Shown here: one piece after another, positions 9,297-59,679 of the stretch
How positions within the stretch are numbered: position 1 is the stretch's first letter
Layout of the letters: each line of letters begins with the position of its first letter
Assembly (NCBI GenBank): GCA_964409875.1
Contig: CAYPEN010000001.1
Span: 134,637 to 198,636, forward strand
DNA: 64,000 nucleotides
Direction: 5' to 3'
From: an uncultured Gammaproteobacteria bacterium
GTDB taxonomy: Bacteria > Patescibacteriota > Microgenomatia > Levybacterales > GWA1-39-11
Program-made: the position numbers and the translations under genes
The notes under the pieces: model-generated
The model's input: only the letters and a program-made list of their open reading frames with translations
Told to the model about the DNA's origin: nothing
Databases searched by the model: none

Positions 9297-11177
9297 TTAA
9301 GAAGTTGCGAGTGGAGGAGTGTTGGTTCCGCTTCCTGTTGGTGTTTCGGCTGTATCAGTTGTGGCACCTACTCCGGAAAGTGTTGGTTCGGGAGCAGCCG
9401 AAGTTTCTGTTGGCGTTGCTCCAAGAGTTGATGCGCCTGCAGATTCTGCAACCGCCGCAGCCTGTTCAAGTACATTTCCAGATGGCGTTGCTGAGCCTTC
9501 CGCAGTCGATGTCATTGCAGAAGACGGATTTTCGATAGCAGGAGCCACGGCGCCGTCGGTTGGAAGCGCTCCATCGGAAACCTCAACTGATGCAGCTACT
9601 TGACCTGCTTGTCCCAAAACGTCCATATTTGAGACTTCAGAACTACCGGTAGCAGCTACCGAGCTCATTGCTGGGTCTACTGCCGGTTCGGGAGCAGTTG
9701 GTGTAGGAGCAGCTTCCGGTTCCACGGGGGCGCCGACTATTGAAGGAGCATCTTCTGCTACTGGTGGCATTCCTGTTCCAAATGGAGGTGGGGTTTCAGT
9801 TGAGGCGCCCGGTAGTGGGGTAGGACTTGTTTCCAAATTGAGAGCATTGGGTTCAGATGAAGCAAGGGGGGAAGTTGCTACAGGTGGTGCTTCAGGGGCA
9901 GAGGGCGCAACTCCAACAACGGGCGCATCAGGATGTGCCGCTGAAGCGTCAATTGACCAGCTTGCAGGTGTAGAGGGTGCAGCGGCTTCACCGGCCGGTG
10001 CCATATCGGTTGACGGTTGATATTCGGGAACTGAAGGCGTTGCTGCAGGCTCTGCTACTGCGGATGGGCCAGATGTGGTCGGTTCTGCCGCAGGGGAGGC
10101 TGGCCATTGAGAAGTTGCCTCGGATGCAGGAGGAGCGGAGGGTGTACCGTCTTGGGTTGCCGCTGGTGTTGTGTCTACTGCGCTTGAAGTGGTTGCGGCT
10201 TCGGTTGGAGTTCCATAACTTGGGAAAGGTTCTGATGATGAGCCGGCTGTGTTTGTAGCTGCTTCAGACGATTGCTGTTCGGAAGGTGTTTCCATTGCCG
10301 TAGTTGCGGTTTTGTCTATTTCATCCAATGCGGCATTGGTGCCTGCTGCATTTGAGACTATAGACTCGGCTTCTGAAACTGCCGCAGTGGCAGCCATGTG
10401 GGATGCTTCGGCAGCTGGAGCGGGTGAGTTATCAACAGGAGCTGCATCTGGAATGGAAGAAATGGGCTCAGTTGTTGCCGTTTCTGCAGGTGAACTGACA
10501 GATTCTAGAGCAGGGGCTGCAGGTGTTTCACTACCTATTGGGGATAGACTATCAGAGGAGGTAACTACAGGTGTTTCTGGGTTGGGAGGCGTTTGCGTCT
10601 CATTTGATGCAGTAGCAGCACTTGAAGTTATTTCTGATGAAGTATCCTGAGGCGGCTTAACACCAGCAGTCCACGTCGTTTCAATTGTGCCTTGAGCTGT
10701 TGTCGCTAAATTTTCGGGCATATTGTTTTGGGGCTGAGGTTGGGCATTTTCCATCTTTGCGCTTCCACGAAGTCCGATAATACCAAGTAGCCTATTTCCA
10801 AGTCCCGGCTTTGGAGGCGTGGCTTGTGCTGCAGCCTTTTCGGCGACCATAGAATTATGGGTGGCGTTTAAGTTAGCCATTTCTGGAGTGCCCAATGGTT
10901 TTAAAGGGTCTAGAGGTTTAATTTCAGGTGCAGGTTGTGTTTGAGCTGCGGCATCTGGGCCAGCAGGCATCGTTGAAGCAGCAGGTTGCTCGGTCCCTGC
11001 CAATGCTTTTGCAGCCACATCTTCAGCTTGCGAGATGACACCAGCCGCTTCGGGAGCTGATGCGCCCGGAGTTGGAAGTAAACCGTTACCTGTTTCTGTT
11101 GCAGCGGGAACTGCTGCTTGTGGTGCTTCAAGCGTGGTAACACCACCGCCCTGATTTTCGCCGTTGTTTGGTCCCAT
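9297..11177 (-). CDS. Large low-complexity Ala/Pro/Thr/Ser/Glu-rich protein, predicted intrinsically disordered
   Basis: 626-aa ORF with no stop for 1.9 kb, co-oriented and 46 bp downstream of 11224..12015. There is no recognisable domain, signal peptide or TM helix. The bias toward GC-rich codons leaves open frames on both strands, so the coding status is uncertain. Confidence 0.4.
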   Translation of the reverse strand: MGPNNGENQGGGVTTLEAPQAAVPAATETGNGLLPTPGASAPEAAGVISQAEDVAAKALAGTEQPAASTMPAGPDAAAQTQPAPEIKPLDPLKPLGTPEMANLNATHNSMVAEKAAAQATPPKPGLGNRLLGIIGLRGSAKMENAQPQPQNNMPENLATTAQGTIETTWTAGVKPPQDTSSEITSSAATASNETQTPPNPETPVVTSSDSLSPIGSETPAAPALESVSSPAETATTEPISSIPDAAPVDNSPAPAAEASHMAATAAVSEAESIVSNAAGTNAALDEIDKTATTAMETPSEQQSSEAATNTAGSSSEPFPSYGTPTEAATTSSAVDTTPAATQDGTPSAPPASEATSQWPASPAAEPTTSGPSAVAEPAATPSVPEYQPSTDMAPAGEAAAPSTPASWSIDASAAHPDAPVVGVAPSAPEAPPVATSPLASSEPNALNLETSPTPLPGASTETPPPFGTGMPPVAEDAPSIVGAPVEPEAAPTPTAPEPAVDPAMSSVAATGSSEVSNMDVLGQAGQVAASVEVSDGALPTDGAVAPAIENPSSAMTSTAEGSATPSGNVLEQAAAVAESAGASTLGATPTETSAAPEPTLSGVGATTDTAETPTGSGTNTPPLATS

Positions 11178-29360: not shown

Positions 29361-29423
29361 ATTGATTGTGGGATAACGAGTTTAATTTTAAATTTAAATT
29401 GAAAGCGGTGTCCCACAATCAAG
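29361..29423. repeat. 13-bp inverted repeat (ATTGATTGTGGGA ... TCCCACAATCAAG) at the AT-rich edge of the GC-rich island
   Basis: Arms at 29361-29373 and 29411-29423 match 12/13, with a 37-bp AT-rich spacer (taatttta aatttaaatt). Confidence 0.5.
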
Positions 29424-29466
29424 AGTCACGATACTTTAGTCTTGTGTGGGAGAAAGGAGTCCGTCT

Positions 29467-29610
29467 ATGACGGATAAAGACGAAGGGCCTATCAGGCCCG
29501 TCAAGCGAGGATATCACAAGGAGGTAACCGTTGCGGATGTCGAGAAAGCGAAAGCTGATCGCATGAAAGCGGCAATCGCCAAGGTCCAACCGACCGTCAA
29601 GCCGGCGTAA
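29467..29610 (+). CDS. Small hypothetical protein (47 aa) inside the GC-rich island
   Basis: MTDKDEGPIRPVKRGYHKEVTVADVEKAKADRMKAAIAKVQPTVKPA, preceded by an RBS (gagaaaggag). GC-rich codon usage matches ppsA. Confidence 0.25.
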   Translation: MTDKDEGPIRPVKRGYHKEVTVADVEKAKADRMKAAIAKVQPTVKPA

Positions 29611-29654
29611 GCCGGCACCAACCCAACCCCGCACAACAAGACACGAGGTAGAAC

Positions 29655-32150
29655 ATGACGCAGTCGCCTATATCCACGGTTCCCAGCATGGGATTCGTGG
29701 GTAACTTCACGGAATTCCGGAAGCACGACATCAGCATCGTCGGTGGTAAGATCGCCAATCTTGGTGAGCTCGCCGCAGCCGGTGCTCCTGGCTCACCCGG
29801 GTTCGCCGTGAAGGTGAACGCCTGGAAGCGCTTCATCGAACTCCATCCCGAAATCGCCTCACTGGTCCGCCAGGAGCTTGATGGGATGGACGTCAACAAC
29901 GATGCAGATGTGGATCTCCGCGCAGAGCGGATCCGCACTGCCATCAAGTCGGCTCCGATGCCGGATGAGATCGCCCGCGAGATTGCTGAGGCATACTCGC
30001 AGACTTTCCCCGCCGGCACGATATGCGCGGTACGATCTTCGGCCACTGCCGAGGACCTTCCCGACGCTGCATTCGCCGGCCAGCAGGACACCCTCTTGGG
30101 AGTCCATGGCGCTTCCGACATCATCGCTGCGGTCCTGGCCTGTTGGTCTTCGATCTTCACGGCGAGGGCCATCATCTATCGCGAAGAACACGACATCTCC
30201 CACTTTGAAGTGGGGATCGCCGTAGCCGTTCAGAAGATGGTGAGGTCGACACGCTCCGGCGTGATCTTCACCCTCAACCCGATGAACAATGACCGCAAGG
30301 TCATCGTCATCGAGACGATCTACGGGCTCGGCGAGAAGTTCGTGTCCGGCAGTTCCAACGCCGACCTCTACGTTGTCGCAAAGGAAAGCCTGGAGATCGT
30401 CTCCCGGCGCCATTCCGAGCAACGCACCATGACGATCCTTGCCGAGTCAGGCATGGGGACCGTCGATGCCGAGGTCGAGGAGTACAAGCAGCAAGCCCAG
30501 AAGCTTACGGACGACCAGGTCCGGGAAGCTGCGAGCCGCGCTCTTGCCATCGAAGCCCACTACGGAGTCCCTCAAGACATCGAGTACGGCATCGATGAGG
30601 AAGGGAACTTCGTAACGCTGCAGGCGCGGCCTGTAACGACCAACAAGATCCAGATCGAGGAGGAAGCGCCACCGACTGAAACGGCGGTCATCCTCTCCGA
30701 TGGTGCGAATGACGATGGTCTCGGTGCTAGTCCTGGCGTTGCCATGGGCCCAGTACGGATCATCAACAGCCACAGCGAATGCGACCAGGTGCGTGAGGGC
30801 GACATTCTCGTCACAGAGATGACGACCCCCGACTACCTGCCCGCAATGCGCAGGGCTGCAGCCATCATCACCGAGATCGGTGGCATGAACTGCCACTCGG
30901 CCATCGTCGGCCGCGAACTCGGTATTCCGGTTATCGTTGCCGTCAAGGACGCGACGACCGGGCGTTTTACCAACGACCAACTCGTTACCGTAGACGGCTC
31001 GCACGAGCGCATCTACGAGGGCGAAGCCAAGCAGGCCTTGGCATGGGGGGCACGCCGCAAGGACCGGCTCACCAAGCTCAAGGCACAGACCGCCAACGTC
31101 CGAACCCGGACGAAAATCGGCATCATCGCCGGAGACGCCAACGGTGGCCCTGAAAAGGTAGCCGAAAGCAACGCCGACATCCTTAGCCTGGTTAGGGCTG
31201 AGCTCGGCCTGGCAAACATCGGTGTGCATCCGATGCTCTCCATTCGTGAGGGTAATTCGGAGTGGCACATCCAGCAGATGGTCGACAACATCATTCCGTT
31301 TGCTCGGGCTATGAAGCCTAAGTTCGACGCAGACCCGGAGACGGTGCTTGCGAAGAAGAAGGGTCTCACGACCTACCGGCTGACGGACTTTAAGACCAAT
31401 GAGTACGCCAACATCAACGGCTCTTCCGAATTCGAACCCACGGAAGAGAATCCCATGATGGGAGAGCGGGGCGCCCTCAAGTTCCTGCTTCAGGAACCTG
31501 CATTCAGGCTCGAATGTGAAGCGGTCCGCCGCGTCATCTTCGACCTCGGGTTCGACAACGTCATTCCGATGCTTCCGGTGGTCCGGACACCCGAGGAGCT
31601 CGAAGCGGTGCTAGTCATCGCGGAAAAGTGCGGGCTCCCGAGGGAGCGGTTCTTGATGATGTGCGAGGTTCCCTCAAACGTCATCGAGCTGCACCGGTTC
31701 CTTGCGTGCGGCATCATGGGCATCTCGGATGGCACCAACGACATGACCCAGTTCGCCTACGCTGCTGACCGTGACGGTGGCCAAAACACCAGCCGGTACG
31801 TGGCAAAGGGCAAGACTGTCCAGATCCTGTTTTCGGTGGCCCTCGTGATCACCCGGGAGCTGGGCAAGTACCATGGCCTGTGCGGCCAGATGGTTTCGGA
31901 CTTCCCGGAGACGATCCCTACGCTCGTTGCGCTGGGTATCGATTCCTTCGGCGTCGACATTGACAAGGTTGATGTGACCCGCAACCTCACCGCCCAGGCA
32001 GAAGCGGCCTTCGTTGGCCTCACCCTCGAAGAGTACCAGGAGCGTTTCGACGATCTGAATGAAATCTTCGAAGAGAAGAGGCGGCAGGTTCTGGTCGAAT
32101 CGCCTGCCTACTTGATTGCGTCCGGTCTTCGGGCGTACGCTACCGCTTAG
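29655..32150 (+). CDS. ppsA: Phosphoenolpyruvate synthase (pyruvate, water dikinase)
   Basis: 831 aa with all three PEP-utilising-enzyme domains. These are an N-terminal ATP-grasp PPDK_N domain, the phosphohistidine domain GGMNCHSAIVGRELGIPVIVAV, and a C-terminal TIM barrel with MMCEVPSNVIEL ... GISDGTNDMTQFAYAADRDGG. That segment aligns with E. coli PpsA MMCEIPSNALL ... GSNDMTQLALGLDRDSG. Confidence 0.85.
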   Translation: MTQSPISTVPSMGFVGNFTEFRKHDISIVGGKIANLGELAAAGAPGSPGFAVKVNAWKRFIELHPEIASLVRQELDGMDVNNDADVDLRAERIRTAIKSAPMPDEIAREIAEAYSQTFPAGTICAVRSSATAEDLPDAAFAGQQDTLLGVHGASDIIAAVLACWSSIFTARAIIYREEHDISHFEVGIAVAVQKMVRSTRSGVIFTLNPMNNDRKVIVIETIYGLGEKFVSGSSNADLYVVAKESLEIVSRRHSEQRTMTILAESGMGTVDAEVEEYKQQAQKLTDDQVREAASRALAIEAHYGVPQDIEYGIDEEGNFVTLQARPVTTNKIQIEEEAPPTETAVILSDGANDDGLGASPGVAMGPVRIINSHSECDQVREGDILVTEMTTPDYLPAMRRAAAIITEIGGMNCHSAIVGRELGIPVIVAVKDATTGRFTNDQLVTVDGSHERIYEGEAKQALAWGARRKDRLTKLKAQTANVRTRTKIGIIAGDANGGPEKVAESNADILSLVRAELGLANIGVHPMLSIREGNSEWHIQQMVDNIIPFARAMKPKFDADPETVLAKKKGLTTYRLTDFKTNEYANINGSSEFEPTEENPMMGERGALKFLLQEPAFRLECEAVRRVIFDLGFDNVIPMLPVVRTPEELEAVLVIAEKCGLPRERFLMMCEVPSNVIELHRFLACGIMGISDGTNDMTQFAYAADRDGGQNTSRYVAKGKTVQILFSVALVITRELGKYHGLCGQMVSDFPETIPTLVALGIDSFGVDIDKVDVTRNLTAQAEAAFVGLTLEEYQERFDDLNEIFEEKRRQVLVESPAYLIASGLRAYATA

Positions 32151-32404
32151 TCCGGAGCTTCATCCGTGAAGATCCGGCTCATCGTTACGAAAACCAATAG
32201 CCGTCCGACCGCGAGGTCGGACACCGGGGACGGGCCGTACGGTCCATCCCCACCCCTCCGCCGTTTTGGCGGGAATCCCAATTGGGTTCCCCCGCCTTCA
32301 CGGCGGGGGGACCTACAATAAATTTCCTCAAATTACTCTTACTCTGTTTTGTGCTGTCTCCCAGATACAAGAACTATCATAAATTTCCTAAGGAGGTGAA
32401 ATAA

Positions 32405-51386: not shown

Positions 51387-54300
51387 GTGCAAGAAGAAAA
51401 TCTATCTTCTCAACCAAACGTGCAGCCTTCCCCGGTTGTTTTAAGAGGTGTAAGTGTAGTGCAACGGATATTCTCCCGCATACCAAGGCCGGTTATTATT
51501 CTTGCAGCCATTGCTATCGGTATTCCTGCCCTTTTGTACGTTTTGAAAGGACCCTCAGGAGGTACCCCGACAAGAACAAAAAGTGAATTTGAACTCGTTG
51601 AAAGTGCGCCTTCCGATCAGCAGAATGCAACTCCGGTAATAGCCCGGCCAACATTTGTTTTTTCAAAAAAGATAGGCGTAAGCGAGAGGGAGCTGGAGAA
51701 GTATTTCACGATGGTGCCAAAAGTAGAAGGGAGTTGGCACATTGAGAAGAACGGACAGGTTGTGTACTTTACATCGGGTAAGAAAAAAGCAGGTAAATTT
51801 CCTCAGACATTTGACTATCAAACAGCATATTCTGTAACAATTGACAAACGGTTTCATTCCGAAAATGGAAAAGAGCTGGCCGGGGAAGAAAATATCACTT
51901 TTAGAACGCAGCAAAACCCCGAATTTTCACTGAAGGCTAATAAAAGCATACTTCCTGTTCCTGTTGGAGATACGATTGATATCGAAATTCAGGATTATGG
52001 ACTTCTTGACAAAAAGTACGCTAAGTCCATTCAGCAACAGACGGCAGAGCCCTACAAAGTCACACTTCAGAAAGCAACGAAAGACGAGTTACTCTCTTAT
52101 TTTATATACAAAAAGAATTCATATCTTGCGGTAAATATAATACCTGATACGCTTGTGCGACGGGCAGCGATAACAACAACCGGTCAATATATGGCCAAAG
52201 GACAGAACGGTTATTCAAAAGTGATACGTGTATCAAATCCTGCCTTTAAGGCACCAGGAATCTATTTTGTGACCTTCTCCAATAAATACGGACGCGATAG
52301 TCTTTTTGTAGTAATTTCAAAGCACGTTGCACAGGTTATCCATGATAACAAGCAAACGTTTGTTATGACAACTGACAGTAATACCAACAAAGCGGTAGGT
52401 GGGATAAAAGTCGAGTACTACAAAACACAAAATAAAGTTGCCTTGCTTGGAGTTAAATCGACAAGTGCAGAAGGAATTGCCCAGCAAGACAATTTCTCAG
52501 ACGACACAGATTTTGTTGTGACAAGCCGAGGGAATGATATTGCAGTAACATCTACGCGTGGATACAGAATGGGGTTAGCATCGGATAAGGAAAGTGAAGT
52601 TTTTTCGTACACCGATAGACCGGTTTACCGCCCTGGGGATACTGTTCATTATAAAGCGGTCATTCGGGTGAGAGACGGAAATGGAGATTTCAAAATTGAG
52701 AGAAAGAAGTATTACGTGAAGTATCAGAGCAGTTATGATGCATCGAAGGGGGATTACAAAGAGGTTGCAGTTGATGAGAACGGAACGCTGTCATTTGATA
52801 CGGTGGTGCCATTTTCTGAGAACAAGCCATATCCCGGTATATATTTAGCTTCAAAAAATACAAAAGGCGAATATCTGTCATTGGATACTTTGCAGCTTGC
52901 TGTCGAGTACTACAAAAAACCCGACATGGATATAAGTGTTAGTGCAAATGAAAAGGAATATATAAGCGGGGACACATCGCATATGACAGTTACAGGTAAA
53001 ACAAATTATGGTAAACCTTTGTCCGGCGTAAAATTTAGCTATCGGGTAATGTTAGTTGACTACCAGGAAGAAAAAGACAGGAATGACGAGAGAATAGAAA
53101 AAGATATTTATAGTAATTATTATGGAGGCGGGAAAGAACTGGCGAATGGTTCCTCAGAATTTGATAAGAACGGAAAAGCTAGCATAGAGTTTTCCACCAA
53201 ATTGCCTGACAGCTTTATACAAAGCCAGGTGGCACTCCTTGAAGTAACGCCTACTATCGGTGCAATTCCTTCTTTTGGAAAAATAGTACGCCTGATACAT
53301 CGCGGAGAGTTTGCGCTCTTTTTTGACGGTATTGAGGCAAATACTTCTACCGGGCTGAGCGGCTATACTGTTGCACTTGACCACAATAATCCGAGGAAGG
53401 CTGTCGGAAACATGAAGGGTAAGTTGACACTGACAAAAAAGGAATACTATTCCGATAATGGGCAAGTCATAGAGACAAGAGATATAGAGCTTGATGGAAA
53501 AGGACGGGCCGGTTTTGCATTCCGCAACCTGAAAGAGGGGAGCTATGAGGTAAAGTCGGAATTCTTGGACGCAAGAGGCAATAGGGTGACGGGGACACTG
53601 ATGACTTACGTAGGAGCTCCGGTTCAATTGAGCGGCACTACAAACGTTATAGGCGTTTCTTTTGATAAACCAAAATACAACGCAGGGGAAACGGCGCGGG
53701 CTACTGTCGTATCAAATTTTTTACTGGATGATGTGTATGTTGTGATAGCAGAGAACAAAGGAGGTGCGACACGGATTGTTTCTGTAGAGAAAAGAAGTGA
53801 AGAGGAGAGAACCAGCTCATTTACCATTTCAATTCCTGTTAGAAAGGAAACCGTTGGTAGTGTAGGAGTTTTGTTATATACGGTGGCAAAAGGTGAGGTA
53901 ATGATAGGCCAAAATTCATTCATTGTTGAAAGGAAAAATGATAAGCTGACGACAAATATAAGTTTTGATAAAAAGCGGTATACGCCGGGCGAAAAAGTAA
54001 CGGTGAAAATTACTACAAAAGACGCGTCGGGGAAAGGAGTCTCCGCTGATAATTCTCTATCGCTAATAGATGCGGCTCTCTTGCAACTTGGAAAACTCAA
54101 GACCGGGATTGTCGAGCAATTTACCACAAAAGACACTTATATTGCCCTCAGCCACTATGACTCGTTAACCGGCATATATGCTGAAGAAGTCGGTGGAGGC
54201 GGAGGCTGCTTTTTGGAAGGGACCCAAATACTGATGGGGGACGGAACGGCAAAGAATATTGAGGACATAAGAATAGGCGATATGATATCTACCAAGTTGT

Positions 54301-56840
54301 CTGAAACATCAAAGGAAATGATACGAAATACGGTGGAGAAGACATTTGCCCACACGGTTACCGAATACCTCCTTATAAATAACAGATTAAAAGTTACCCC
54401 CATTCACAGGATTTATCTGAATGGGCACTGGGCGGAAGCATCAGAGGCAAAAGTGGGGGATATGCTTCTGGATGTCTCTGGCGCCCAGGTTGAAATTACT
54501 TCCATAACGAAAAATATTGGAATTTTCAGGGTCTATAACCTGACGACAAATCCCTCACACACTTTCTTTGCCGATGGAATGTATGTGCATAACGAAAAGG
54601 GTCTTGACCCCAGGCAAAATTTTGTCGATACGTTGTACTGGAATCCTCACATAAAAACAGACAGTAATGGAGAGGCAACCGTTAGTTTTAAGCTTGCAGA
54701 CAATGTGACTACATTTACAGCTCAAGCATTCTCTAATACAAAAGATTCACTTTTCGGGGAAGGGACCGCAAGCATCGTAAGCTACAAAGACCTGACAATT
54801 ATCCCGTCACTCTCTGCCTTTTACTATGAGCACGACAAACCCGTAATTTCGGTTATCGCACAAAATTCTACAGGAAGTGATATGGATTTGACCATTGTTA
54901 GCGGAATAAAAGAGCTAAGTGGTGAGAACAAACAGGACATTCATGTGAAGGGAAATGACCTTGAGGTGATTGATGTGCCATTTGATTTGAGGGATTTGAC
55001 AAAGAATGCCACCTTCATTGTTGAGGCAAGAGATAGAAGCGGGAAGGTTGTTGATAGTGTTCTTATGAAAATTCCAATTTTACCTCAAGGGAATATCTCG
55101 GCACGCTGGGAATCTTTCGAGAATTCATATGACCATGTGTTCCAACCCGAATTTCCTTCGCTTGATGCAAACCGCATGGAGGTGTCAATAGTTCCCAATG
55201 CCGCAGCAAAGCTTGCACAGCCATATTATGGTATAAGTACCTATCTTTCTACTCAAACAGGGCAACAACTTTTTGCATACTCGTATATTTTGGCAAGGAC
55301 GAGGGACGGATTTATTGATCCTGCTTCATATAATTACGCCCAAGATGTGAATGAGTTCCGGGATGCAATCGAGACGCTATCCGAAGGAAGAGTTGAAAAT
55401 ACGTGGACGCAGTCTGAGTATAATAATTTTTATGGTGGTGATTCTTTCGAATCCGCCAACCTGTGGGTTGCCATGGGATTTGAAAAGGCTATTGAGAACA
55501 AAATGCTTGACGAAGTTACAAACGCACGGGAAATGGTGGATAAAACCAAAGTGTATTTTAAGGATTACGGCGGCATCAAACCTCCGCCTCCACCGCCATT
55601 TTACCCAATGAGCCCGACACCCGCTTTTTACCCGACACCGGTAGTATCACTAACGCCGACACCGGTAGCATCACTGACTCCGACACCTTCAACTACTTCT
55701 TCAGGTATTGTTTTTGCGCCACCGCCTCCGCCGCCCGTAGTATCCTTTCCACCTGCGCCTACGGTTCAACCATATTATCAACCATATCCTATGCCCCCGG
55801 TGACCCGGTACTATACCGATAATGAAAAATTGGTACGGACATTGTTGTACGGGCAGTCGTTTCCTGACGAGTTAGGAAGTAAATTTAATGAAACGCCGGA
55901 AGGTTTGGCCTCACAAATACTTTTAGGGAAAGAGAATTTGATGCAAAAGCTTCTGAGTCTTCGTATCACATCGGCATCAGACCGTTATATATGGAGCGGA
56001 TACACTACTGCATCGGAGGAATTGCCGGTTCTGGCAATTGTTGAAAAAGGAACGCTTGAGGATGCCGAAAAAGCCATACGTGGAATATCATTTACAGAGG
56101 AGAGTGCCCAGCCGTTAACCCTGTACGCGGCGGTCAAATATGCAGAAAGGAAAAATATTACCATTTCAAAGCCAACTTTTAAGGTGTTAGTTAACGGTGA
56201 AAATGCTTTTGAATTCCCATCGAAGGAGAATGATAATAATGCCTATCAAAATTTTACACAAGCTCTCTCAACCAGAAGCAGCAAAGACGGGAAATTACAT
56301 CTTGAAGTAAAGTCGAGTGGAGGACTTCCCATTTACGGAACGGTAAGTGAATTTATCTATACTGGAGCCGGACACACTGTTGACAGCGACGATTCTTACA
56401 AAGCAGACATACAGCTTGTTAGGAGTTTTCGTGATATTGAGAGCGGCCAGACAGTCAGTTCTATCGGGAAAGGAAAGACCGGTGTGGTAGTGTTCTCATC
56501 TGAACCCCAACGTCTTCTGAAGACCGGTGATGCGTCTTATGCCCTCACGTATCTTATGGAAGACATGATAGCCCCCAACAATTTTTACCTGGATCAAAGC
56601 CAATCATATTACGACCCGCAATTTCAAAGTGTTTTGAAGAAGCTTTTTCCATCAAATGACAACTCCCAACCCGCTTATGAACTCCCCGGAGAATTTACTG
56701 ACCAGACCGTATTTTATAATAGAACCCGTTCAAGGGTAAATCTTCCCTACGTTGTTTTTAGCACGTCAGATGGGACTTATTACCGGCCTAAGACGAGCAT
56801 AGTGTTCCCCATTTTAGGTGTTGTTGCAAACGAAAAGTAG
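51387..56840 (+). CDS. Giant membrane-anchored alpha-2-macroglobulin-like protein (MG-domain array) with a Hint/mini-intein domain at the bait-region position and a Pro-rich segment
   Basis: 1817 aa with a GTG start and an N-terminal TM helix (PVIILAAIAIGIPALLYVL). It has repeated A2M_N/MG-type domain starts (VFSYTDRPVYRPGDTVHYKAVIR; VSFDKPKYNAGETARATVVS; ISFDKKRYTPGEKVTVKIT). The A2M post-bait domain signature RQNFVDTLYWNPHIKTDSNGEATVSFKLADNVTTFTAQAFS is present. A TED-like segment LAQPYYGISTY stands where the A2M family has MPYGCGEQ, so the thioester Cys is absent. There is a proline-rich block (PPPPPPFYPMSPTPAFYPTPVVSLTPTP...APPPPPPVV). Confidence 0.75.
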   Translation: MQEENLSSQPNVQPSPVVLRGVSVVQRIFSRIPRPVIILAAIAIGIPALLYVLKGPSGGTPTRTKSEFELVESAPSDQQNATPVIARPTFVFSKKIGVSERELEKYFTMVPKVEGSWHIEKNGQVVYFTSGKKKAGKFPQTFDYQTAYSVTIDKRFHSENGKELAGEENITFRTQQNPEFSLKANKSILPVPVGDTIDIEIQDYGLLDKKYAKSIQQQTAEPYKVTLQKATKDELLSYFIYKKNSYLAVNIIPDTLVRRAAITTTGQYMAKGQNGYSKVIRVSNPAFKAPGIYFVTFSNKYGRDSLFVVISKHVAQVIHDNKQTFVMTTDSNTNKAVGGIKVEYYKTQNKVALLGVKSTSAEGIAQQDNFSDDTDFVVTSRGNDIAVTSTRGYRMGLASDKESEVFSYTDRPVYRPGDTVHYKAVIRVRDGNGDFKIERKKYYVKYQSSYDASKGDYKEVAVDENGTLSFDTVVPFSENKPYPGIYLASKNTKGEYLSLDTLQLAVEYYKKPDMDISVSANEKEYISGDTSHMTVTGKTNYGKPLSGVKFSYRVMLVDYQEEKDRNDERIEKDIYSNYYGGGKELANGSSEFDKNGKASIEFSTKLPDSFIQSQVALLEVTPTIGAIPSFGKIVRLIHRGEFALFFDGIEANTSTGLSGYTVALDHNNPRKAVGNMKGKLTLTKKEYYSDNGQVIETRDIELDGKGRAGFAFRNLKEGSYEVKSEFLDARGNRVTGTLMTYVGAPVQLSGTTNVIGVSFDKPKYNAGETARATVVSNFLLDDVYVVIAENKGGATRIVSVEKRSEEERTSSFTISIPVRKETVGSVGVLLYTVAKGEVMIGQNSFIVERKNDKLTTNISFDKKRYTPGEKVTVKITTKDASGKGVSADNSLSLIDAALLQLGKLKTGIVEQFTTKDTYIALSHYDSLTGIYAEEVGGGGGCFLEGTQILMGDGTAKNIEDIRIGDMISTKLSETSKEMIRNTVEKTFAHTVTEYLLINNRLKVTPIHRIYLNGHWAEASEAKVGDMLLDVSGAQVEITSITKNIGIFRVYNLTTNPSHTFFADGMYVHNEKGLDPRQNFVDTLYWNPHIKTDSNGEATVSFKLADNVTTFTAQAFSNTKDSLFGEGTASIVSYKDLTIIPSLSAFYYEHDKPVISVIAQNSTGSDMDLTIVSGIKELSGENKQDIHVKGNDLEVIDVPFDLRDLTKNATFIVEARDRSGKVVDSVLMKIPILPQGNISARWESFENSYDHVFQPEFPSLDANRMEVSIVPNAAAKLAQPYYGISTYLSTQTGQQLFAYSYILARTRDGFIDPASYNYAQDVNEFRDAIETLSEGRVENTWTQSEYNNFYGGDSFESANLWVAMGFEKAIENKMLDEVTNAREMVDKTKVYFKDYGGIKPPPPPPFYPMSPTPAFYPTPVVSLTPTPVASLTPTPSTTSSGIVFAPPPPPPVVSFPPAPTVQPYYQPYPMPPVTRYYTDNEKLVRTLLYGQSFPDELGSKFNETPEGLASQILLGKENLMQKLLSLRITSASDRYIWSGYTTASEELPVLAIVEKGTLEDAEKAIRGISFTEESAQPLTLYAAVKYAERKNITISKPTFKVLVNGENAFEFPSKENDNNAYQNFTQALSTRSSKDGKLHLEVKSSGGLPIYGTVSEFIYTGAGHTVDSDDSYKADIQLVRSFRDIESGQTVSSIGKGKTGVVVFSSEPQRLLKTGDASYALTYLMEDMIAPNNFYLDQSQSYYDPQFQSVLKKLFPSNDNSQPAYELPGEFTDQTVFYNRTRSRVNLPYVVFSTSDGTYYRPKTSIVFPILGVVANEK
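54207..54593 (+). other. Hint (intein-like / BIL-type) domain embedded in the A2M-like protein
   Basis: 129 aa run from CFLEGTQILMGDG (block A, Cys1) through TPIHRIY (block B, TxxH) to VYNLTTNPSHTFFADGMYVHN (blocks F/G, terminal His-Asn). The following residue is Glu, not Cys/Ser/Thr, so this is not a canonical splicing intein. It is preceded by a GGGGG linker. Confidence 0.8.
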
Positions 56841-58385: not shown

Positions 58386-58427
58386 ATTTAATGCCTTGCA
58401 ATAGTCATATTTCTTTGTTTTAATAAA

Positions 58428-58562
58428 TACTGCATCAAGAGAGTTTCAAGAAATTGAAACCGGCAACCGTAAATTTTTCGGTGCCAAAGCGAGAGCAGAT
58501 GCGTCCTGAGCAAGTCGAAGGAAAAAATGTCTATAAGACCTCTCGCTTTCGGGAGGTTTTTT
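58428..58562 (+). ncRNA. Putative SAM riboswitch (SAM-I-clan-like core, minimal P2 and no P4) with an intrinsic terminator, in the metK leader
   Basis: The P1 5' arm is GCATC, followed by J1/2 AAGAGAG (58437-58443). A short P2 hairpin is GTTTCAAgaaatTGAAAC. P3 is GGCAACC...GGTGCCAA (58462-58488), matching the SAM-I P3/J3-4 core. The P1 3' arm is GATGC (58499-58503). A terminator, CCTCTCGctttCGGGAGG+TTTTTT (58538-58562), ends 1 nt before the metK ATG. AGCGAGAG (58489-58496) is complementary to CTCTCGCT in the terminator 5' arm, so it can act as an antiterminator. Recall-based with no covariance model. Confidence 0.45.
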
Positions 58563-58563
58563 A

Positions 58564-59679
58564 ATGGCAAAAAAGAGTCTTTTTACATCAGAATCAGTAT
58601 GTTCAGGGCATCCTGACAAAATTTGCGACAGGATAAGTGATTCTATTGTGGATGCTGCTATGTCAGAGGACCCGCATTCGAGGTGTGGCATCGAAACAGT
58701 CGCCGGGGCAAACCAGGTCTGCCTTTTCGGAGAGATAAAAACTTCGGCTAAAATCGATTACGAAAAAGTGGTAAGAGATACGATTCTGGAGTTAGGCTAC
58801 ACAGAGCCATCATGGGGTTTTTCAACAGAATCCGCTTTTTCAAATGATATCCATGAGCAGTCGCCTGAGATTGCAATGGGAGTAGACAATGACGGCGCAG
58901 GTGACCAGGGGATGATGTTCGGGTACGCGTGCACGGAAACGCCAGAGCTTATGCCTATCCCAATACGCATGGCACACGCGTTAACCCAACGGATAGATGA
59001 AGTTAGAGCCGGAAAAAAACTTAAATGGTTGCGGCCTGATGGGAAAGCACAAGTAACTGTCAGATATGAGAATGGAAAGCCGGTTGCTGTAGAAAAATTG
59101 GTCGCGGCTGTTGCACATGATGAGAAAGTTGATGCTATTGATGTCAGGACTGGAGTTATAAGAGAAATTTTTGAGCCCGTATTAAAAAGGTATAAGTTGG
59201 ATTTGCCAAAAGAGGGAAACATAACAGTTAACGGGACCGGCCTTTGGCATATTCCCGGTCCCGAGTCTGACGCCGGACTAACAGGCAGAAAAATTGTTGT
59301 TGATACATACGGAGGGTATGCTCGGGTTGGGGGCGGCGCATTTTCAGGAAAAGACCCGACAAAGGTCGATAGAAGCGGCGCGTATGCTGCCCGTTTTATC
59401 GCAAAAAACATTGTGGCTTCAGGCCTTGCTACAAAATGCGAAGTGGGACTTGCCTATGTTATAGGAAAAGCCCGTCCCTTAATGCAAACAATTGAAACAT
59501 TCGGGACGGAGGCGGTAAGCGAGAAAGCGTTACACGCATTTAAAGACAAGTTGATTGATACGTCTGTCAGGGGAATTATCGAGCGGTTGAGTTTGGCAAG
59601 ACCAATATACAAAGCTACCTCCTCATATGGCCACTTTGGACGCGAAGAATTCCCGTGGGAGAAGATAGTAGAGGGGTAA
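58564..59679 (+). CDS. metK: S-adenosylmethionine synthetase
   Basis: 371 aa. The N-terminus FTSESVCSGHPDKICDRISDSIVDA carries the MetK signature, and GGGAFSGKDPTKVDRSGAYAARFIAKNIVASGLA is the MetK signature 2 region. Confidence 0.9.
   Translation: MAKKSLFTSESVCSGHPDKICDRISDSIVDAAMSEDPHSRCGIETVAGANQVCLFGEIKTSAKIDYEKVVRDTILELGYTEPSWGFSTESAFSNDIHEQSPEIAMGVDNDGAGDQGMMFGYACTETPELMPIPIRMAHALTQRIDEVRAGKKLKWLRPDGKAQVTVRYENGKPVAVEKLVAAVAHDEKVDAIDVRTGVIREIFEPVLKRYKLDLPKEGNITVNGTGLWHIPGPESDAGLTGRKIVVDTYGGYARVGGGAFSGKDPTKVDRSGAYAARFIAKNIVASGLATKCEVGLAYVIGKARPLMQTIETFGTEAVSEKALHAFKDKLIDTSVRGIIERLSLARPIYKATSSYGHFGREEFPWEKIVEG

What the first reader, a model, noticed from the sequence alone, without database searches (positions are those of the whole stretch)
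51387..56840. Alpha-2-macroglobulin-like giant protein with a Hint (intein-like) domain at the bait-region position and no CGEQ thioester
Seen in the sequence: an N-terminal TM anchor, several MG-domain starts of the A2M_N type (TDRPVYRPGDTVHYK; FDKPKYNAGE; FDKKRYTPGEKV), and the A2M post-bait motif (RQNFVDTLYWNPHIKTDSNGEATVSF...DNVTTFTAQAFS). Immediately before that post-bait motif, where A2Ms carry the protease bait region, sits a 129-aa Hint domain. It has intein blocks A (CFLEGTQILMGDG), B (TPIH) and F/G (VYNLTT..HTFFADGMYVHN), followed by Glu rather than a +1 nucleophile. At the expected thioester site the protein reads PYYGISTY, where the family has PYGCGEQ. Inference: a protein-trapping scaffold that has lost its own thioester but gained an autoprocessing module capable of N-S acyl shift. 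That shift would make a reactive thioester at Gly-Cys1, and Asn cyclisation could cleave the C-terminus, so the domain could provide self-cleavage or covalent transfer at the position where proteases normally cut. I am not aware of this architecture being described. The tentative label is a BIL-type Hint domain, not a splicing intein. In a putative episymbiont it might mediate covalent attachment to a host or protease defence.
Basis: partly seen in the sequence, partly recalled or inferred. Interest (0 to 1): 0.85.

Follow-up and report, generated by a model that had tools for sequence, protein, structure and literature searches.

The report
Self-processing Hint domain in A2M bait
A giant membrane-anchored surface protein of a tiny candidate-phyla-radiation (CPR) bacterium is a relative of the alpha-2-macroglobulin protease traps, and in the loop that attacking proteases normally cut it carries a strictly conserved self-cutting (intein-like) domain, an arrangement that turns out to be common in these bacteria but that I could not find described.

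Summary
Window 51387-56840 (+) encodes an 1817-aa protein with an N-terminal TM anchor. It is collinear with bacterial alpha-2-macroglobulins (hhalign E 8e-106; Foldseek to ECAM E 6e-30). A 129-aa Hint domain (C941-N1069) sits in the bait loop, and no CxEQ thioester exists. The Hint is a type A bacterial intein-like (BIL) domain: Cys1, TxxH, C-terminal His-Asn and no +1 nucleophile. Its closest folds are the two solved BILs. It is not a curiosity of this genome. An exhaustive profile search found 607 cluster representatives at E<=1e-30, almost all from Patescibacteria. The catalytic residues and the flanks GG|C...HN|xKG are essentially invariant. The Hint is more conserved than its host and diverges together with it. 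The Hint is therefore not a substitute for a lost thioester, and the window's clade is a derived thioester-less branch. Most likely the Hint cuts itself out of the bait loop, so this A2M processes its own bait. Whether the two halves are rejoined, stay as two chains or are transferred to another molecule is unknown. I found no description of this architecture.

The parts
51387..56840 (+). Whole gene: 1817-aa membrane-anchored A2M-superfamily protein with a Hint insertion
   Evidence: ORF listing. Pfam domains. hhalign against 50 canonical A2Ms gives probability 100%, E 8e-106 and 1395 collinear columns. The same gene is present in an independent assembly.
51492..51545 (+). N-terminal transmembrane anchor (about aa 36-53), preceded by a ~35-aa cytoplasmic tail. 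There is no lipobox cysteine.
   Evidence: It is the only Kyte-Doolittle window above 1.6 in the protein, and the only Cys is at 941.
51585..51908 (+). Ig-like domain (weak Big_5 match), aa 67-174
   Evidence: Pfam PF13205 at E 0.004, below the curated cut-off. The same domain is significant in relatives L015, L021 and L024.
51924..53654 (+). Array of MG domains (aa ~180-756), including the MG2 signature TDRPVYRPGDTVHYK at aa 409-423
   Evidence: Pfam MG2 E 2e-13 and a weak bMG3 hit. Collinear hhalign alignment to canonical A2M MG domains.
53655..54089 (+). A2M_BRD (bait-region domain, two MG-like beta domains), aa 757-901
   Evidence: Pfam PF07703 E 1.6e-15, matching profile positions 3-140 of 140. 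The AF2 model has beta domains here with pLDDT 77-94.
54072..54206 (+). Disordered pre-Hint linker (aa 896-940) ending in the invariant Gly run GGGGG. It is the N-terminal half of the bait loop.
   Evidence: AF2 pLDDT is 37-64 here. The sequence is variable except for G939 and G940, which are Gly in 67 and 68 of 69 proteins. It aligns to the ECAM bait region.
54207..54593 (+). Type A BIL (Hint) domain, aa 941-1069 (129 aa). Key residues are Cys1 = C941, block B T1004-x-x-H1007 and terminal H1068-N1069.
   Evidence: Pfam PT-HINT E 1.4e-12. PDB profile hits are BIL2 6Y75/6TMM at E 1.6e-12 and 2LWY at 1.2e-11. The Hint-only AF2 model has pLDDT 86. Foldseek top hits are BIL2 (TM 0.80) and the C. 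thermocellum BIL (TM 0.76/0.84). The catalytic residues are present in 69 of 69 proteins.
54594..54629 (+). C-terminal junction and post-Hint bait segment, aa 1070-1081 (E-K-G-L-D-P-R-Q-N-F-V-D). The +1 residue is acidic, +2 is an invariant Lys and +3 is Gly.
   Evidence: +1 is D or E in 69 of 69, K1071 in 69 of 69, G1072 in 66 of 69 and R1076 in 67 of 69. In 133 wider representatives +1 is D/Q/E/G/S and +2 is almost always K. The segment aligns to ECAM 951-965, which rebinds the C-terminal MG domain after bait cleavage.
54630..54893 (+). A2M domain (MG7 of eukaryotic numbering), aa 1082-1169, beginning with the YWNPH motif
   Evidence: Pfam PF00207 E 7e-10. AF2 pLDDT is about 90.
54894..55199 (+). 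Further beta domains (the CUB/MG-like region that precedes the TED), aa 1170-1271
   Evidence: AF2 strands with pLDDT 89-96. Collinear with canonical A2Ms.
55200..56156 (+). Helical TED-like domain without a thioester, aa 1272-1590. The degenerate thioester site PYYG/ISTY is at aa 1279-1286 (nt 55221-55244). A disordered Pro-rich insert lies at aa 1396-1472 (nt 55572-55802).
   Evidence: AF2 helices with pLDDT mostly above 85, and below 50 in the insert. hhalign places canonical YPYGCtEQT opposite a gap after 'AQPYYG'. There is no C.EQ in any of the 16 family members. The insert is 38% Pro and is variable or absent in relatives.
56175..56831 (+). C-terminal beta domains (second half of CUB plus a bMG10/CTMG-like domain), aa 1597-1815
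   Evidence: AF2 strands. hhalign collinearity runs to the canonical C-terminus. The whole 745-1817 model hits ECAM, SaA2M, A2ML1, CD109, TEP1, C3 and C5 at E 1e-30 to 1e-20.

Best explanation
What it is. The protein is a surface-exposed, TM-anchored A2M-superfamily protein of a Patescibacteria (probably Levyibacteria-like) bacterium. Its bait loop permanently houses a catalytically competent type A bacterial intein-like (BIL/Hint) domain.

How it most likely works (inferred). After export and folding, Cys941 performs an N-S acyl shift on the Gly940-Cys941 bond, which produces a thioester. Asn1069 then cyclises and breaks the Asn1069-Glu1070 bond. Together these reactions remove the 129-aa Hint from the bait loop. 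The A2M scaffold therefore processes its own bait instead of, or before, being cut by a foreign protease.

Possible outcomes. For type A BILs cleavage products dominate, and bait-cleaved A2Ms stay together as two associated chains. The simplest outcome is therefore a two-chain molecule. It would consist of a membrane-anchored MG1-BRD chain ending in ...GGGGG, and an MG7/TED-like/CTMG chain starting with EKGLDPR. Alternatively, the freed alpha-amine of Glu1070 or the epsilon-amine of the invariant Lys1071 attacks the thioester. That would re-ligate the two halves through a peptide or an isopeptide bond.

The wider family. Most members retain the TED thioester. In those, release of the post-Hint segment is predicted to mimic protease cleavage of the bait. 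The window's clade has lost the thioester, so it would act non-covalently (like type II A2Ms) or through the Hint-derived thioester.

Shown: the architecture, the insertion site, the BIL identity, the invariance of catalytic and flanking residues, the wide vertical distribution, and the coexistence with the thioester in relatives. Inferred: that processing occurs, what its products are, and its biological purpose.
For: Architecture and insertion site.

BIL identity. Profile hits to the solved BILs 6Y75/6TMM and 2LWY. The fold search ranks the two BILs first, ahead of all inteins and Hedgehog. The published type A BIL criteria are Cys1, C-terminal His-Asn, no +1 nucleophile, and cleavage predominating over splicing (PMC4031507; PMC7664689). 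All are met in the sequence.

Selection on both junction chemistries. C1, T946, T1004-x-x-H1007, H1068-N1069 and K1071 are present in 69 of 69 proteins, and G940 in 68 of 69. The same GG|C...HN|xKG flanks occur in 133 further representatives.

Conservation and inheritance. Mean pairwise identity is 44% in the Hint against 26% in the flanking MG domains over 181 proteins. The two distance sets are positively correlated (Mantel r 0.37, 0 of 999 permutations reach it). No near-identical Hints occur in divergent hosts.

The catalytic cysteine. Cys941 is the sole Cys in 1817 residues, where about 16 would be expected (naive P 1.6e-6).

Family size. 607 representatives at E<=1e-30.

Supporting biochemistry from the literature. 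The post-Hint segment aligns to ECAM F947-N963, which rebinds the CTMG domain after bait cleavage and so releases the TED (PMC4498604; alignment). Bait-cleaved MagD fragments remain associated (PMC5764988).
Against: No experiment or proteomic datum shows that processing occurs.

The AF2 models give no information on reactivity.

A constitutively self-cleaving bait would seem to waste the thioester in the 74% of relatives that keep it. Some form of control or re-ligation must therefore exist, and it is unknown.

Invariance of both junctions and of Lys+2 is more than a simple 'cut the loop' function needs. This hints at ligation or transfer chemistry that I cannot resolve.

The Lys/Gly flank also occurs in tandem multi-Hint proteins. 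It may therefore be a property of this BIL subtype and not of the A2M context.

GC3 of the Hint segment (0.49) is at the top of the within-gene range (mean 0.40, sd 0.04). Total GC is the same as in the rest of the gene.
Confidence: 0.6

Rival explanations
1. Maturation by splicing. The Hint behaves as a resident, immobile intein-like element. It excises itself and re-ligates Gly940 to Glu1070 by type A BIL aminolysis, or to Lys1071 as an isopeptide. The result is an ordinary single-chain A2M with a normal-length bait of about 20 residues that then waits for a protease. The Hint would serve only as a folding or export lock, or as a timer.
For: Type A BILs can splice without a +1 nucleophile, through attack of the freed amine on the thioester (PMC4031507). 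The closest solved homologue, BIL2, forms Lys isopeptides (PMC8616854). Both junction chemistries and Lys+2/Gly+3 are invariant, which pure cleavage does not require. After excision the remaining loop would be about as long as the shortest canonical baits. Most relatives keep a thioester that would be wasted by constitutive bait cleavage.
Against: For BILs, cleavage products dominate over spliced products. Lys sits at +1 rather than +2 in tandem multi-Hint proteins, so its register is not fixed. There is no direct evidence.
Confidence: 0.25
2. The Hint-generated Gly940 thioester substitutes for the lost TED thioester. It covalently transfers the membrane-anchored N-terminal chain onto an external nucleophile such as a protease lysine, a host surface or the cell wall.
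For: This clade has no CxEQ and has a single Cys, at Hint position 1. BIL2 conjugates its upstream Gly-Gly-terminated domain to lysines of other proteins. Hedgehog Hint domains transfer their N-terminal fragment to cholesterol (PMC7664689).
Against: The Hint is equally conserved in the 74% of relatives that still carry a canonical thioester. It did not evolve as a replacement. A transfer-only function would not need the invariant C-terminal His-Asn. A GG|CF junction is common to Hint domains generally; this last point is my own knowledge of Hedgehog sequences.
Confidence: 0.1
3. A selfish canonical intein, or a recently acquired or degenerate one, with no role for the host protein. A variant of this explanation is an assembly chimera.
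For: It has the Hint fold with all splicing-type motifs. The Hint's GC3 is slightly elevated.
Against: No +1 Cys, Ser or Thr occurs in 69 of 69 loci. In 133 further representatives +1 is mostly D, Q, E or G, with Ser in only 3. At 129 aa there is no room for a homing endonuclease. It sits in the most variable loop of the host, not in a conserved active site. It occupies the same site in hundreds of proteins, is more conserved than the host, and diverges together with it. The same gene is found in independent assemblies and at least 69 genomes.
Confidence: 0.03
4. A pre-toxin HINT of a polymorphic toxin. The Hint would release the C-terminal part as a toxin or effector.
For: The best Pfam match is PT-HINT.
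Against: Everything C-terminal of the Hint is collinear A2M scaffold (MG7, CUB, TED-like and CTMG). There is no toxin domain. There is no adjacent immunity-like gene, and no neighbour is conserved in this clade.
Confidence: 0.02

Closest known systems
Type A bacterial intein-like (BIL) domains: Clostridium thermocellum BIL (PDB 2LWY) and Tetrahymena thermophila BUBL BIL2 (PDB 6Y75/6TMM)
   Same: The Hint fold matches (TM 0.76-0.84, rmsd 1.9-2.4 A, 27-31% identity). It also shares Cys1, block B TxxH, the C-terminal His-Asn, the lack of a +1 nucleophile, and a small size with no endonuclease. BIL2 too is preceded by Gly-Gly.
   Different: The host context differs. Known BILs lie in variable regions of secreted or cellulosomal proteins, in FhaB-like proteins, or between ubiquitin-like domains. 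Here the BIL occupies one fixed, homologous site, the A2M bait loop, in hundreds of orthologues. It also has invariant flanks (GG|C...HN|xKG). Activity is untested.
Type II (thioester-less) bacterial A2Ms: Pseudomonas MagD and E. coli YfaS
   Same: It has the A2M scaffold with a bait loop but no CxEQ. MagD traps a protease non-covalently after bait cleavage, and its two fragments stay associated (PMC5764988).
   Different: There is no six-gene mag/yfa operon and no conserved partner genes in this clade. It is anchored by a TM helix on a CPR bacterium rather than located in a Gram-negative periplasm. The bait is occupied by a Hint. Thioester loss here is an independent, recent event inside a thioester-bearing, Hint-bearing family.
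Type I bacterial A2Ms: E. coli ECAM/YfhM and Salmonella SaA2M
   Same: It is collinear from end to end, with the same multidomain fold. The Hint site maps into the ECAM bait region. Most Hint-bearing relatives keep the YPYGCxEQT thioester together with TED and bMG10.
   Different: The window protein lacks the thioester, a lipoprotein signal and a pbpC neighbour. ECAM's bait is a plain disordered loop cut by foreign proteases.
Complement C3/C4/C5 maturation (own knowledge: furin-type cleavage at the beta/alpha-chain junction, in the loop homologous to the A2M bait region, gives a two-chain protein without activating it)
   Same: Built-in processing at the bait-equivalent loop of an A2M-fold protein would give a multi-chain mature molecule.
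   Different: In complement the cut is made by a separate protease at a basic linker, and an anaphylatoxin domain occupies the loop. Here the cutter would be an embedded Hint domain. The analogy is an inference and was not tested.
A2M-domain giant surface proteins of predatory or epibiotic Patescibacteria (Cand. Vampirococcus lugosii Vamp_6_203 and Vamp_19_245)
   Same: These are large membrane-localised A2M-domain proteins in CPR bacteria, interpreted as defence against host proteases (PMC8080830; PMC9793634).
   Different: Those papers mention no Hint or intein-like domain. I did not examine whether those particular proteins carry one.

Membership tests
Alpha-2-macroglobulin / TEP / complement superfamily | Collinear array of MG domains, a bait-region domain and the A2M (MG7) domain | tested here: met
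   Pfam MG2, A2M_BRD and A2M all score above their curated cut-offs. hhalign against 50 canonical A2Ms gives probability 100% and E 8e-106 over 1395 columns.
Alpha-2-macroglobulin / TEP / complement superfamily | C-terminal CUB / helical TED / C-terminal MG fold | tested here: met
   AF2 model of aa 745-1817 has pLDDT 82 and pTM 0.67, with beta domains, a helical domain and further beta domains. Foldseek hits include ECAM 4RTD at E 5.8e-30, A2ML1, SaA2M, CD109, TEP1, C3 and C5. There is no Pfam TED or bMG10 hit in this protein.
Alpha-2-macroglobulin / TEP / complement superfamily | Internal CxEQ thioester in the TED | tested here: not met
   There is no C.EQ in the protein or in any of the 16 clade members, and the only Cys is 941. 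The canonical YPYGCtEQT block aligns to a gap. The superfamily includes thioester-less members such as C5 and MagD, so this does not exclude membership.
Alpha-2-macroglobulin / TEP / complement superfamily | Protease trapping after bait cleavage | not testable with these tools
   This requires biochemistry.
Type I bacterial A2M (ECAM/SaA2M) | Thioester, lipoprotein anchor and a pbpC (PBP1c) neighbour | tested here: not met
   There is no CxEQ and no N-terminal Cys. The neighbours are DUF1361, an unknown 199-aa protein, an unknown 111-aa protein and VIT1. E. coli yfhM lies next to pbpC.
Type II bacterial A2M (MagD/YfaS) | No CxEQ but a bait region retained | tested here: met
   The bait loop is present but is occupied by the Hint.
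Type II bacterial A2M (MagD/YfaS) | Encoded in the six-gene mag/yfa operon with partner proteins | tested here: not met
   There are no such neighbours. Only the nearest relatives L001 and L002 share synteny, and there is no clade-wide partner gene.
Type A bacterial intein-like (BIL) domain | Hint fold | tested here: met
   The Hint-only AF2 model has pLDDT 86. Foldseek top hits are BIL2 6Y75 (E 4e-12, TM 0.80) and 2LWY (E 2e-10).
Type A bacterial intein-like (BIL) domain | N-terminal Cys/Ser nucleophile and block B TxxH | tested here: met
   C941 and T1004-P-I-H1007 are invariant in 69 of 69 proteins.
Type A bacterial intein-like (BIL) domain | C-terminal His-Asn, as in inteins (type B BILs lack it) | tested here: met
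   H1068-N1069 is present in 69 of 69 proteins. The criterion comes from PMC4031507.
Type A bacterial intein-like (BIL) domain | No nucleophilic +1 residue | tested here: met
   +1 is E here and D or E in 69 of 69 loci. In 133 representatives it is D/Q/E/G, with S in 3.
Type A bacterial intein-like (BIL) domain | Autocatalytic N- and C-terminal cleavage, with or without splicing | not testable with these tools
   This is inferred only from the invariance of the catalytic residues.
Canonical (class 1) intein | +1 Cys, Ser or Thr for trans-esterification | tested here: not met
   E1070.
Canonical (class 1) intein | Sporadic, mobile distribution and insertion in conserved host sites | tested here: not met
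   The site is fixed and lies in the host's variable loop. The Hint diverges together with the host (Mantel r 0.37, 0 of 999 permutations). At 129 aa there is no room for an endonuclease.
Pre-toxin HINT of polymorphic toxins (Pfam PF07591) | A Hint immediately upstream of a C-terminal toxin domain, with an adjacent immunity gene | tested here: not met
   The Pfam model matches, but the downstream part is A2M scaffold. There is no conserved downstream gene in this clade.
Hedgehog-type Hint (Hog) domain | Only the N-terminal reaction is used, with a C-terminal sterol-recognition region and no terminal His-Asn | tested here: not met
   The terminal His-Asn is invariant. Hedgehog structures rank well below the BILs and inteins (1AT0 at E 3e-6).

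The most novel reading that the evidence does not exclude
CPR bacteria have turned the A2M protease trap into a self-firing device. Excision of the embedded BIL domain replaces cleavage by a foreign protease as the trigger for the A2M conformational change. This exposes the TED thioester in most family members. In thioester-less clades such as this one it instead provides a Gly-thioester or Lys-isopeptide chemistry. The cell-anchored protein could then attach itself covalently to a host cell surface or to a target protein. In the clades where the gene is fused to an anti-sigma-like tail and paired with an ECF sigma factor, it could report the event to the cytoplasm.
Probability: 0.15. Interest if true: 0.9.

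Novelty: new variant of a known kind. Interest (0 to 1): 0.7.

Why it matters
A2M/TEP/complement proteins are the textbook case of a machine triggered by proteolysis. In every described member the trigger is a foreign or dedicated protease that cuts an exposed loop. Here a large lineage-wide family carries an autoprocessing domain in exactly that loop. The family has hundreds of 50%-identity clusters across Patescibacteria, the ultra-small episymbiotic bacteria whose surface biology is largely unknown. The domain is under stronger constraint than the scaffold.

If it is active, this would be the first A2M with a built-in trigger or maturation step. It would also be the first BIL domain with a fixed, orthologous and evidently selected position in a defined host machine. 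BIL function has been an open question since 2003.

The question is directly testable with one recombinant fragment and four point mutants. The work also corrects a tempting but wrong reading, that the Hint replaces a lost thioester. It flags a possible link to ECF sigma signalling in sister clades.

Tried and rejected
1. The search for homologous proteins with the BRD-Hint-MG7 segment alone returned only 2 hits, because the word filter was swamped. With the family profile it did not reach the distant Hint-bearing members. The exhaustive HMMER search and the genome-contig scan did reach them.

2. My first regex survey of the junctions was too strict and missed most loci. I replaced it with a Hint HMM of my own.

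3. An exact look-up of the 1817-aa product found nothing. The 1806-aa alternative-start form did.

4. Literature searches combining macroglobulin with 'bacterial intein-like', 'Hint domain', 'intein' or 'Patescibacteria' found no description of the architecture. The library lacks most subscription journals and all database annotations, so absence is not proof.

5. NCBIfam gave nothing useful.

6. Assembly chimera, selfish intein, PT-HINT toxin and Hedgehog-like readings were considered and rejected; see the rival explanations and the membership tests.

7. The 69 of 72 figure is biased, because one of the two scan patterns was the Hint C-terminus itself. It is a lower bound on the number of species and not a frequency among CPR A2Ms. 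Hint-less CPR A2Ms exist (L070 and L071).

8. The 'Nanoarchaeia' locus L021 was considered as evidence for spread to DPANN archaea. I rejected this because it is syntenic with, and 68% identical to, a Falkowbacteria locus.

9. I could not inspect model coordinates. The geometry of Lys1071 relative to Cys941 is therefore unknown.


Full report
1. THE OBSERVATION

The ORF at window 51387-56840 (+) is real and encodes 1817 aa.
- MG2 at aa 405-436, E 2e-13
- A2M_BRD at aa 757-901, E 1.6e-15
- a Hint domain at aa 940-1069 (PT-HINT E 1.4e-12, with weaker Vint, Hom_end_hint, Hint_2 and Intein_splicing hits)
- A2M at aa 1082-1169, E 7e-10

There is no TED or bMG10 hit. The only strongly hydrophobic segment is at aa ~36-53, which makes it a single N-terminal anchor. 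All quoted motifs are present. These are GGGGG|C941-FLEGT, T1004-P-I-H1007 and H1068-N1069, followed by Glu1070.

No C-x-E-Q occurs anywhere. Cys941 is the only cysteine in the whole protein. The window's other ORFs contain 0.89% Cys, so about 16 would be expected (naive binomial P = 1.6e-6).

The gene with its neighbours is also found in an independent Logan assembly of run SRR11845633. This excludes an assembly chimera.

2. IT IS A FULL-LENGTH A2M SCAFFOLD

A profile of the 16-member family (alignment A1) aligns collinearly to a profile of 50 canonical thioester A2Ms. The probability is 100%, E is 8e-106, and 1395 columns align from aa ~100 to the C-terminus.

An AlphaFold2 model of aa 745-1817 has mean pLDDT 82 and pTM 0.67. 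In order it shows:
- MG/BRD beta domains
- a disordered linker at aa 896-940 (pLDDT 37-64)
- a compact, confident Hint at aa 941-1069
- more beta domains
- a helical TED-like domain at aa ~1272-1590, interrupted by a disordered Pro-rich insert (aa 1396-1472, 38% Pro)
- C-terminal beta domains

Foldseek against the PDB returns the following hits:
- E. coli ECAM (4RTD), E 5.8e-30
- human A2ML1
- Salmonella A2M
- CD109
- TEP1
- C3 and C5

The canonical YPYGCtEQT thioester block aligns to a gap just after 'AQPYYG'. It is not conserved within the family.

3. THE HINT IS IN THE BAIT LOOP

In the profile alignment the Hint is a clean insertion where Hint-less A2Ms have a short variable segment. That segment lies between the end of the BRD and the conserved R-x-x-F-x-D-T-A-Y-W start of the next MG domain.

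ECAM was taken from E. coli K-12 and aligned with canonical, Hint-plus-thioester and Hint-only proteins. This alignment puts the Hint between ECAM D950 and G951.

Fyfe et al. 2015 mapped the ECAM bait experimentally (PMC4498604). R923-L942 is the disordered segment lost after elastase cleavage. F947-N963 is the part that binds the C-terminal MG domain after cleavage and displaces the TED. C1187-Q1190 is the thioester.

The Hint therefore sits inside the functional bait region. Its C-terminal junction lies at the start of the segment homologous to the CTMG-binding stretch of ECAM.

4. THE HINT IS A TYPE A BACTERIAL INTEIN-LIKE (BIL) DOMAIN

The best solved relatives by sequence are Tetrahymena BIL2 (6Y75/6TMM, E 1.6e-12) and the Clostridium thermocellum BIL (2LWY, E 1.2e-11).

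A Hint-only AF2 model has pLDDT 86 and pTM 0.80. By Foldseek it matches these same two structures best. BIL2 scores TM 0.80 with rmsd 2.3 A. 2LWY scores TM 0.76/0.84 with rmsd 1.9 A. Both rank ahead of every canonical intein and of Hedgehog.

Published criteria for type A BILs are Cys1, a C-terminal His-Asn, no +1 nucleophile, and cleavage products dominating over splicing. When splicing does occur, it goes through thioester formation, Asn cyclisation and aminolysis (PMC4031507; PMC7664689). The sequence meets all the sequence-level criteria. Activity itself cannot be tested with these tools.

5. IT IS A LARGE, OLD FAMILY UNDER STRONG SELECTION

- Sixteen 90%-identity clusters share the exact architecture, down to 37% identity.
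- A scan of one genome per GTDB species gave 72 loci, and 69 of them carry the Hint. Where the records are named they are almost all Patescibacteria. The groups include Levyi-, Roizman-, Shapiro-, Collier-, Peregrini-, Peri-, Gracili-, Magasanik- and Falkowbacteria. This count is a lower bound and not a frequency, because one scan pattern was the Hint C-terminus itself.
- An exhaustive HMMER search of 1.84 billion representatives used a profile of aa 896-1172. It found 607 proteins at E<=1e-30. Of the best 150, 133 are single-Hint proteins, mostly 1650-1850 aa long and matched across linker, Hint and MG7 in one stretch.
- Across the 69 loci, C941, F942, T946, T1004, H1007, H1068, N1069 and K1071 are invariant. 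G940 is present in 68 of 69, and +1 is always D or E. In the wider set the flanks are GG|C and HN|[D/Q/E/G/S]-K-G.
- Over 181 proteins the Hint is more conserved than the flanking MG domains, with mean pairwise identity of 44% against 26%. Its divergence correlates with theirs (Mantel r 0.37, 0 of 999 permutations). No near-identical Hints occur in divergent hosts.

This is the signature of a resident, vertically inherited, functional domain. It is not the signature of a mobile intein.

6. THE KEY CORRECTION

The wider family contradicts this.

- Of 122 Hint-bearing representatives with a complete C-terminal half, 90 (74%) have a canonical YPYGC[V/T/M]EQT motif 215-232 residues after the Hint.
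- L014, L015 and L036 have the full set of MG2, A2M_BRD, Hint, A2M, TED_complement and bMG10.

The Hint insertion therefore coexists with the thioester and is independent of it. The window's clade (the window plus L001-L013) is a derived branch. That branch lost the thioester block and acquired a Pro-rich insert in the TED-like domain.

7. THE MOST LIKELY MECHANISM

Shown: a catalytically complete type A BIL sits in the bait loop, and both its N-terminal and C-terminal reaction centres are under selection.

Inferred: it forms a Gly940-Cys941 thioester and cleaves after Asn1069. It thereby removes itself from the loop.

Selection on both junctions argues for complete excision. A Hedgehog-like N-only reaction or a C-only cut would not need both. 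Three outcomes are possible.

(a) Two associated chains. BILs mostly cleave, and bait-cleaved MagD fragments stay together.

(b) Re-ligation through the alpha-amine of residue +1 or the epsilon-amine of the invariant Lys+2. BIL2 forms Lys isopeptides.

(c) Transfer to an external nucleophile.

In thioester-bearing relatives, releasing the post-Hint segment should mimic bait cleavage, because that segment is homologous to ECAM's CTMG-binding stretch. This creates a timing problem that favours either regulation or outcome (b). I put about 0.6 on 'active self-excision that processes the bait'. Within that, the odds between (a) and (b) are roughly even, and (c) is the least likely.

8. GENE CONTEXT

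The window's neighbours are as follows:
- an MBL-fold hydrolase
- a rhodanese
- a DUF1361 protein
- an unknown 199-aa protein
- an unknown 111-aa protein
- VIT1
- a SAM riboswitch followed by metK

They are shared only with the nearest relatives L001 and L002. No partner gene is conserved across the clade.

In more distant Hint-A2M clades the picture differs. A membrane-anchored Memo-like gene abuts the 3' end in 40 loci. An ECF-type sigma-70 gene overlaps the 5' end in 23 loci. The sigma-linked proteins have a 50-87-aa cytoplasmic N-terminus with a shared motif. Unlinked ones, including this clade, have only 12-35 aa. This suggests that some family members work as anti-sigma-like sensors. It does not apply to the window protein.

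9. COMPARISON WITH WHAT IS KNOWN, AND NOVELTY

A2M-domain giant surface proteins have been noted in Patescibacteria and interpreted as defence against host proteases. Those papers do not mention a Hint (PMC8080830; PMC9793634).

Thioester-less (type II) bacterial A2Ms are known, but they are defined by a six-gene operon that is absent here.

BIL domains have been known since 2003, and their biological role is largely open.

Searches that combined macroglobulin with BIL, Hint or intein terms found nothing relevant. Within the limits of the library I could search, a BIL fixed in the A2M bait loop is undescribed.

I classify it as a new variant of known kinds. Both modules are known. The architecture and the implied self-processing of the bait are new. 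The function is unproven.

Noticed in passing
L014-L069 (e.g. L054:4546-5112 sigma factor; L014:12496-13263 Memo-like): In distant Hint-A2M clades the gene is flanked by two conserved neighbours. An ECF-type sigma-70 gene overlaps its start in 23 loci. A membrane-anchored Memo-like gene abuts its stop in 40 loci, and in some loci that protein is 550-640 aa long. Sigma-linked proteins have a 50-87-aa cytoplasmic N-terminus with the motif P..S..F[KR]..L[KR]..[IL]L before the TM helix. This suggests an anti-sigma-like sensor role. Both features are absent from the window's clade.
   Followed up: partly
P0124, P0128, P0125, P0229, P0123 (proteins): 17 of the 150 best hits are proteins made of 2-12 head-to-tail copies of the same Hint subtype, with junctions of the form ...VHNK|GGCF.... 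For example, P0124 is 1285 aa and shows 11 Hint matches, several of which cover only part of the domain model, and P0128 has 5 directly abutting Hints after a signal peptide. I know of no described function for tandem BIL arrays.
   Followed up: partly
window 51387-56840 (aa 941): Cys941, the catalytic Cys1 of the Hint, is the only cysteine in the 1817-aa protein. It is also the sole Cys in 10 of the 16 family members. About 16 would be expected from the window's other ORFs.
   Followed up: yes
window 29400-32400 (gene 29655-32150, +): A PEP-utilising enzyme gene (PPDK_N, PEP-utilizers and PEP-utilizers_C domains; 831 aa) has about 60% GC, with sharp boundaries, in a genome of about 42% GC. 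It is probably a recent horizontal acquisition.
   Followed up: partly
window 58427-58537 (+), upstream of metK 58564-59679: A SAM-I/IV riboswitch (Rfam RF01725, 47.1 bits against a gathering score of 41.1) lies directly upstream of the S-adenosylmethionine synthetase gene.
   Followed up: no
L021 (DATJQC010000017.1, labelled 'Candidatus Nanoarchaeia archaeon'): This Hint-A2M locus is 68% identical to a Falkowbacteria locus (L023) over the whole protein, and its flanking genes are syntenic with it. The archaeal label is most likely a binning or classification error and not evidence of transfer to DPANN archaea. Many other loci are titled 'uncultured Gammaproteobacteria/Pseudomonadales' in TPA assemblies even though they encode the same CPR-type protein.
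   Followed up: partly
window 55572-55802 (aa 1396-1472): A 77-aa Pro-rich (38% Pro), predicted-disordered insert with PTP/PPPPPP repeats interrupts the TED-like helical domain. It is variable in length and is absent from about half of the clade members.
   Followed up: no
window 9297-11177 (-): A 625-aa ORF with no Pfam match and no cysteine. Its function is unknown.
   Followed up: no
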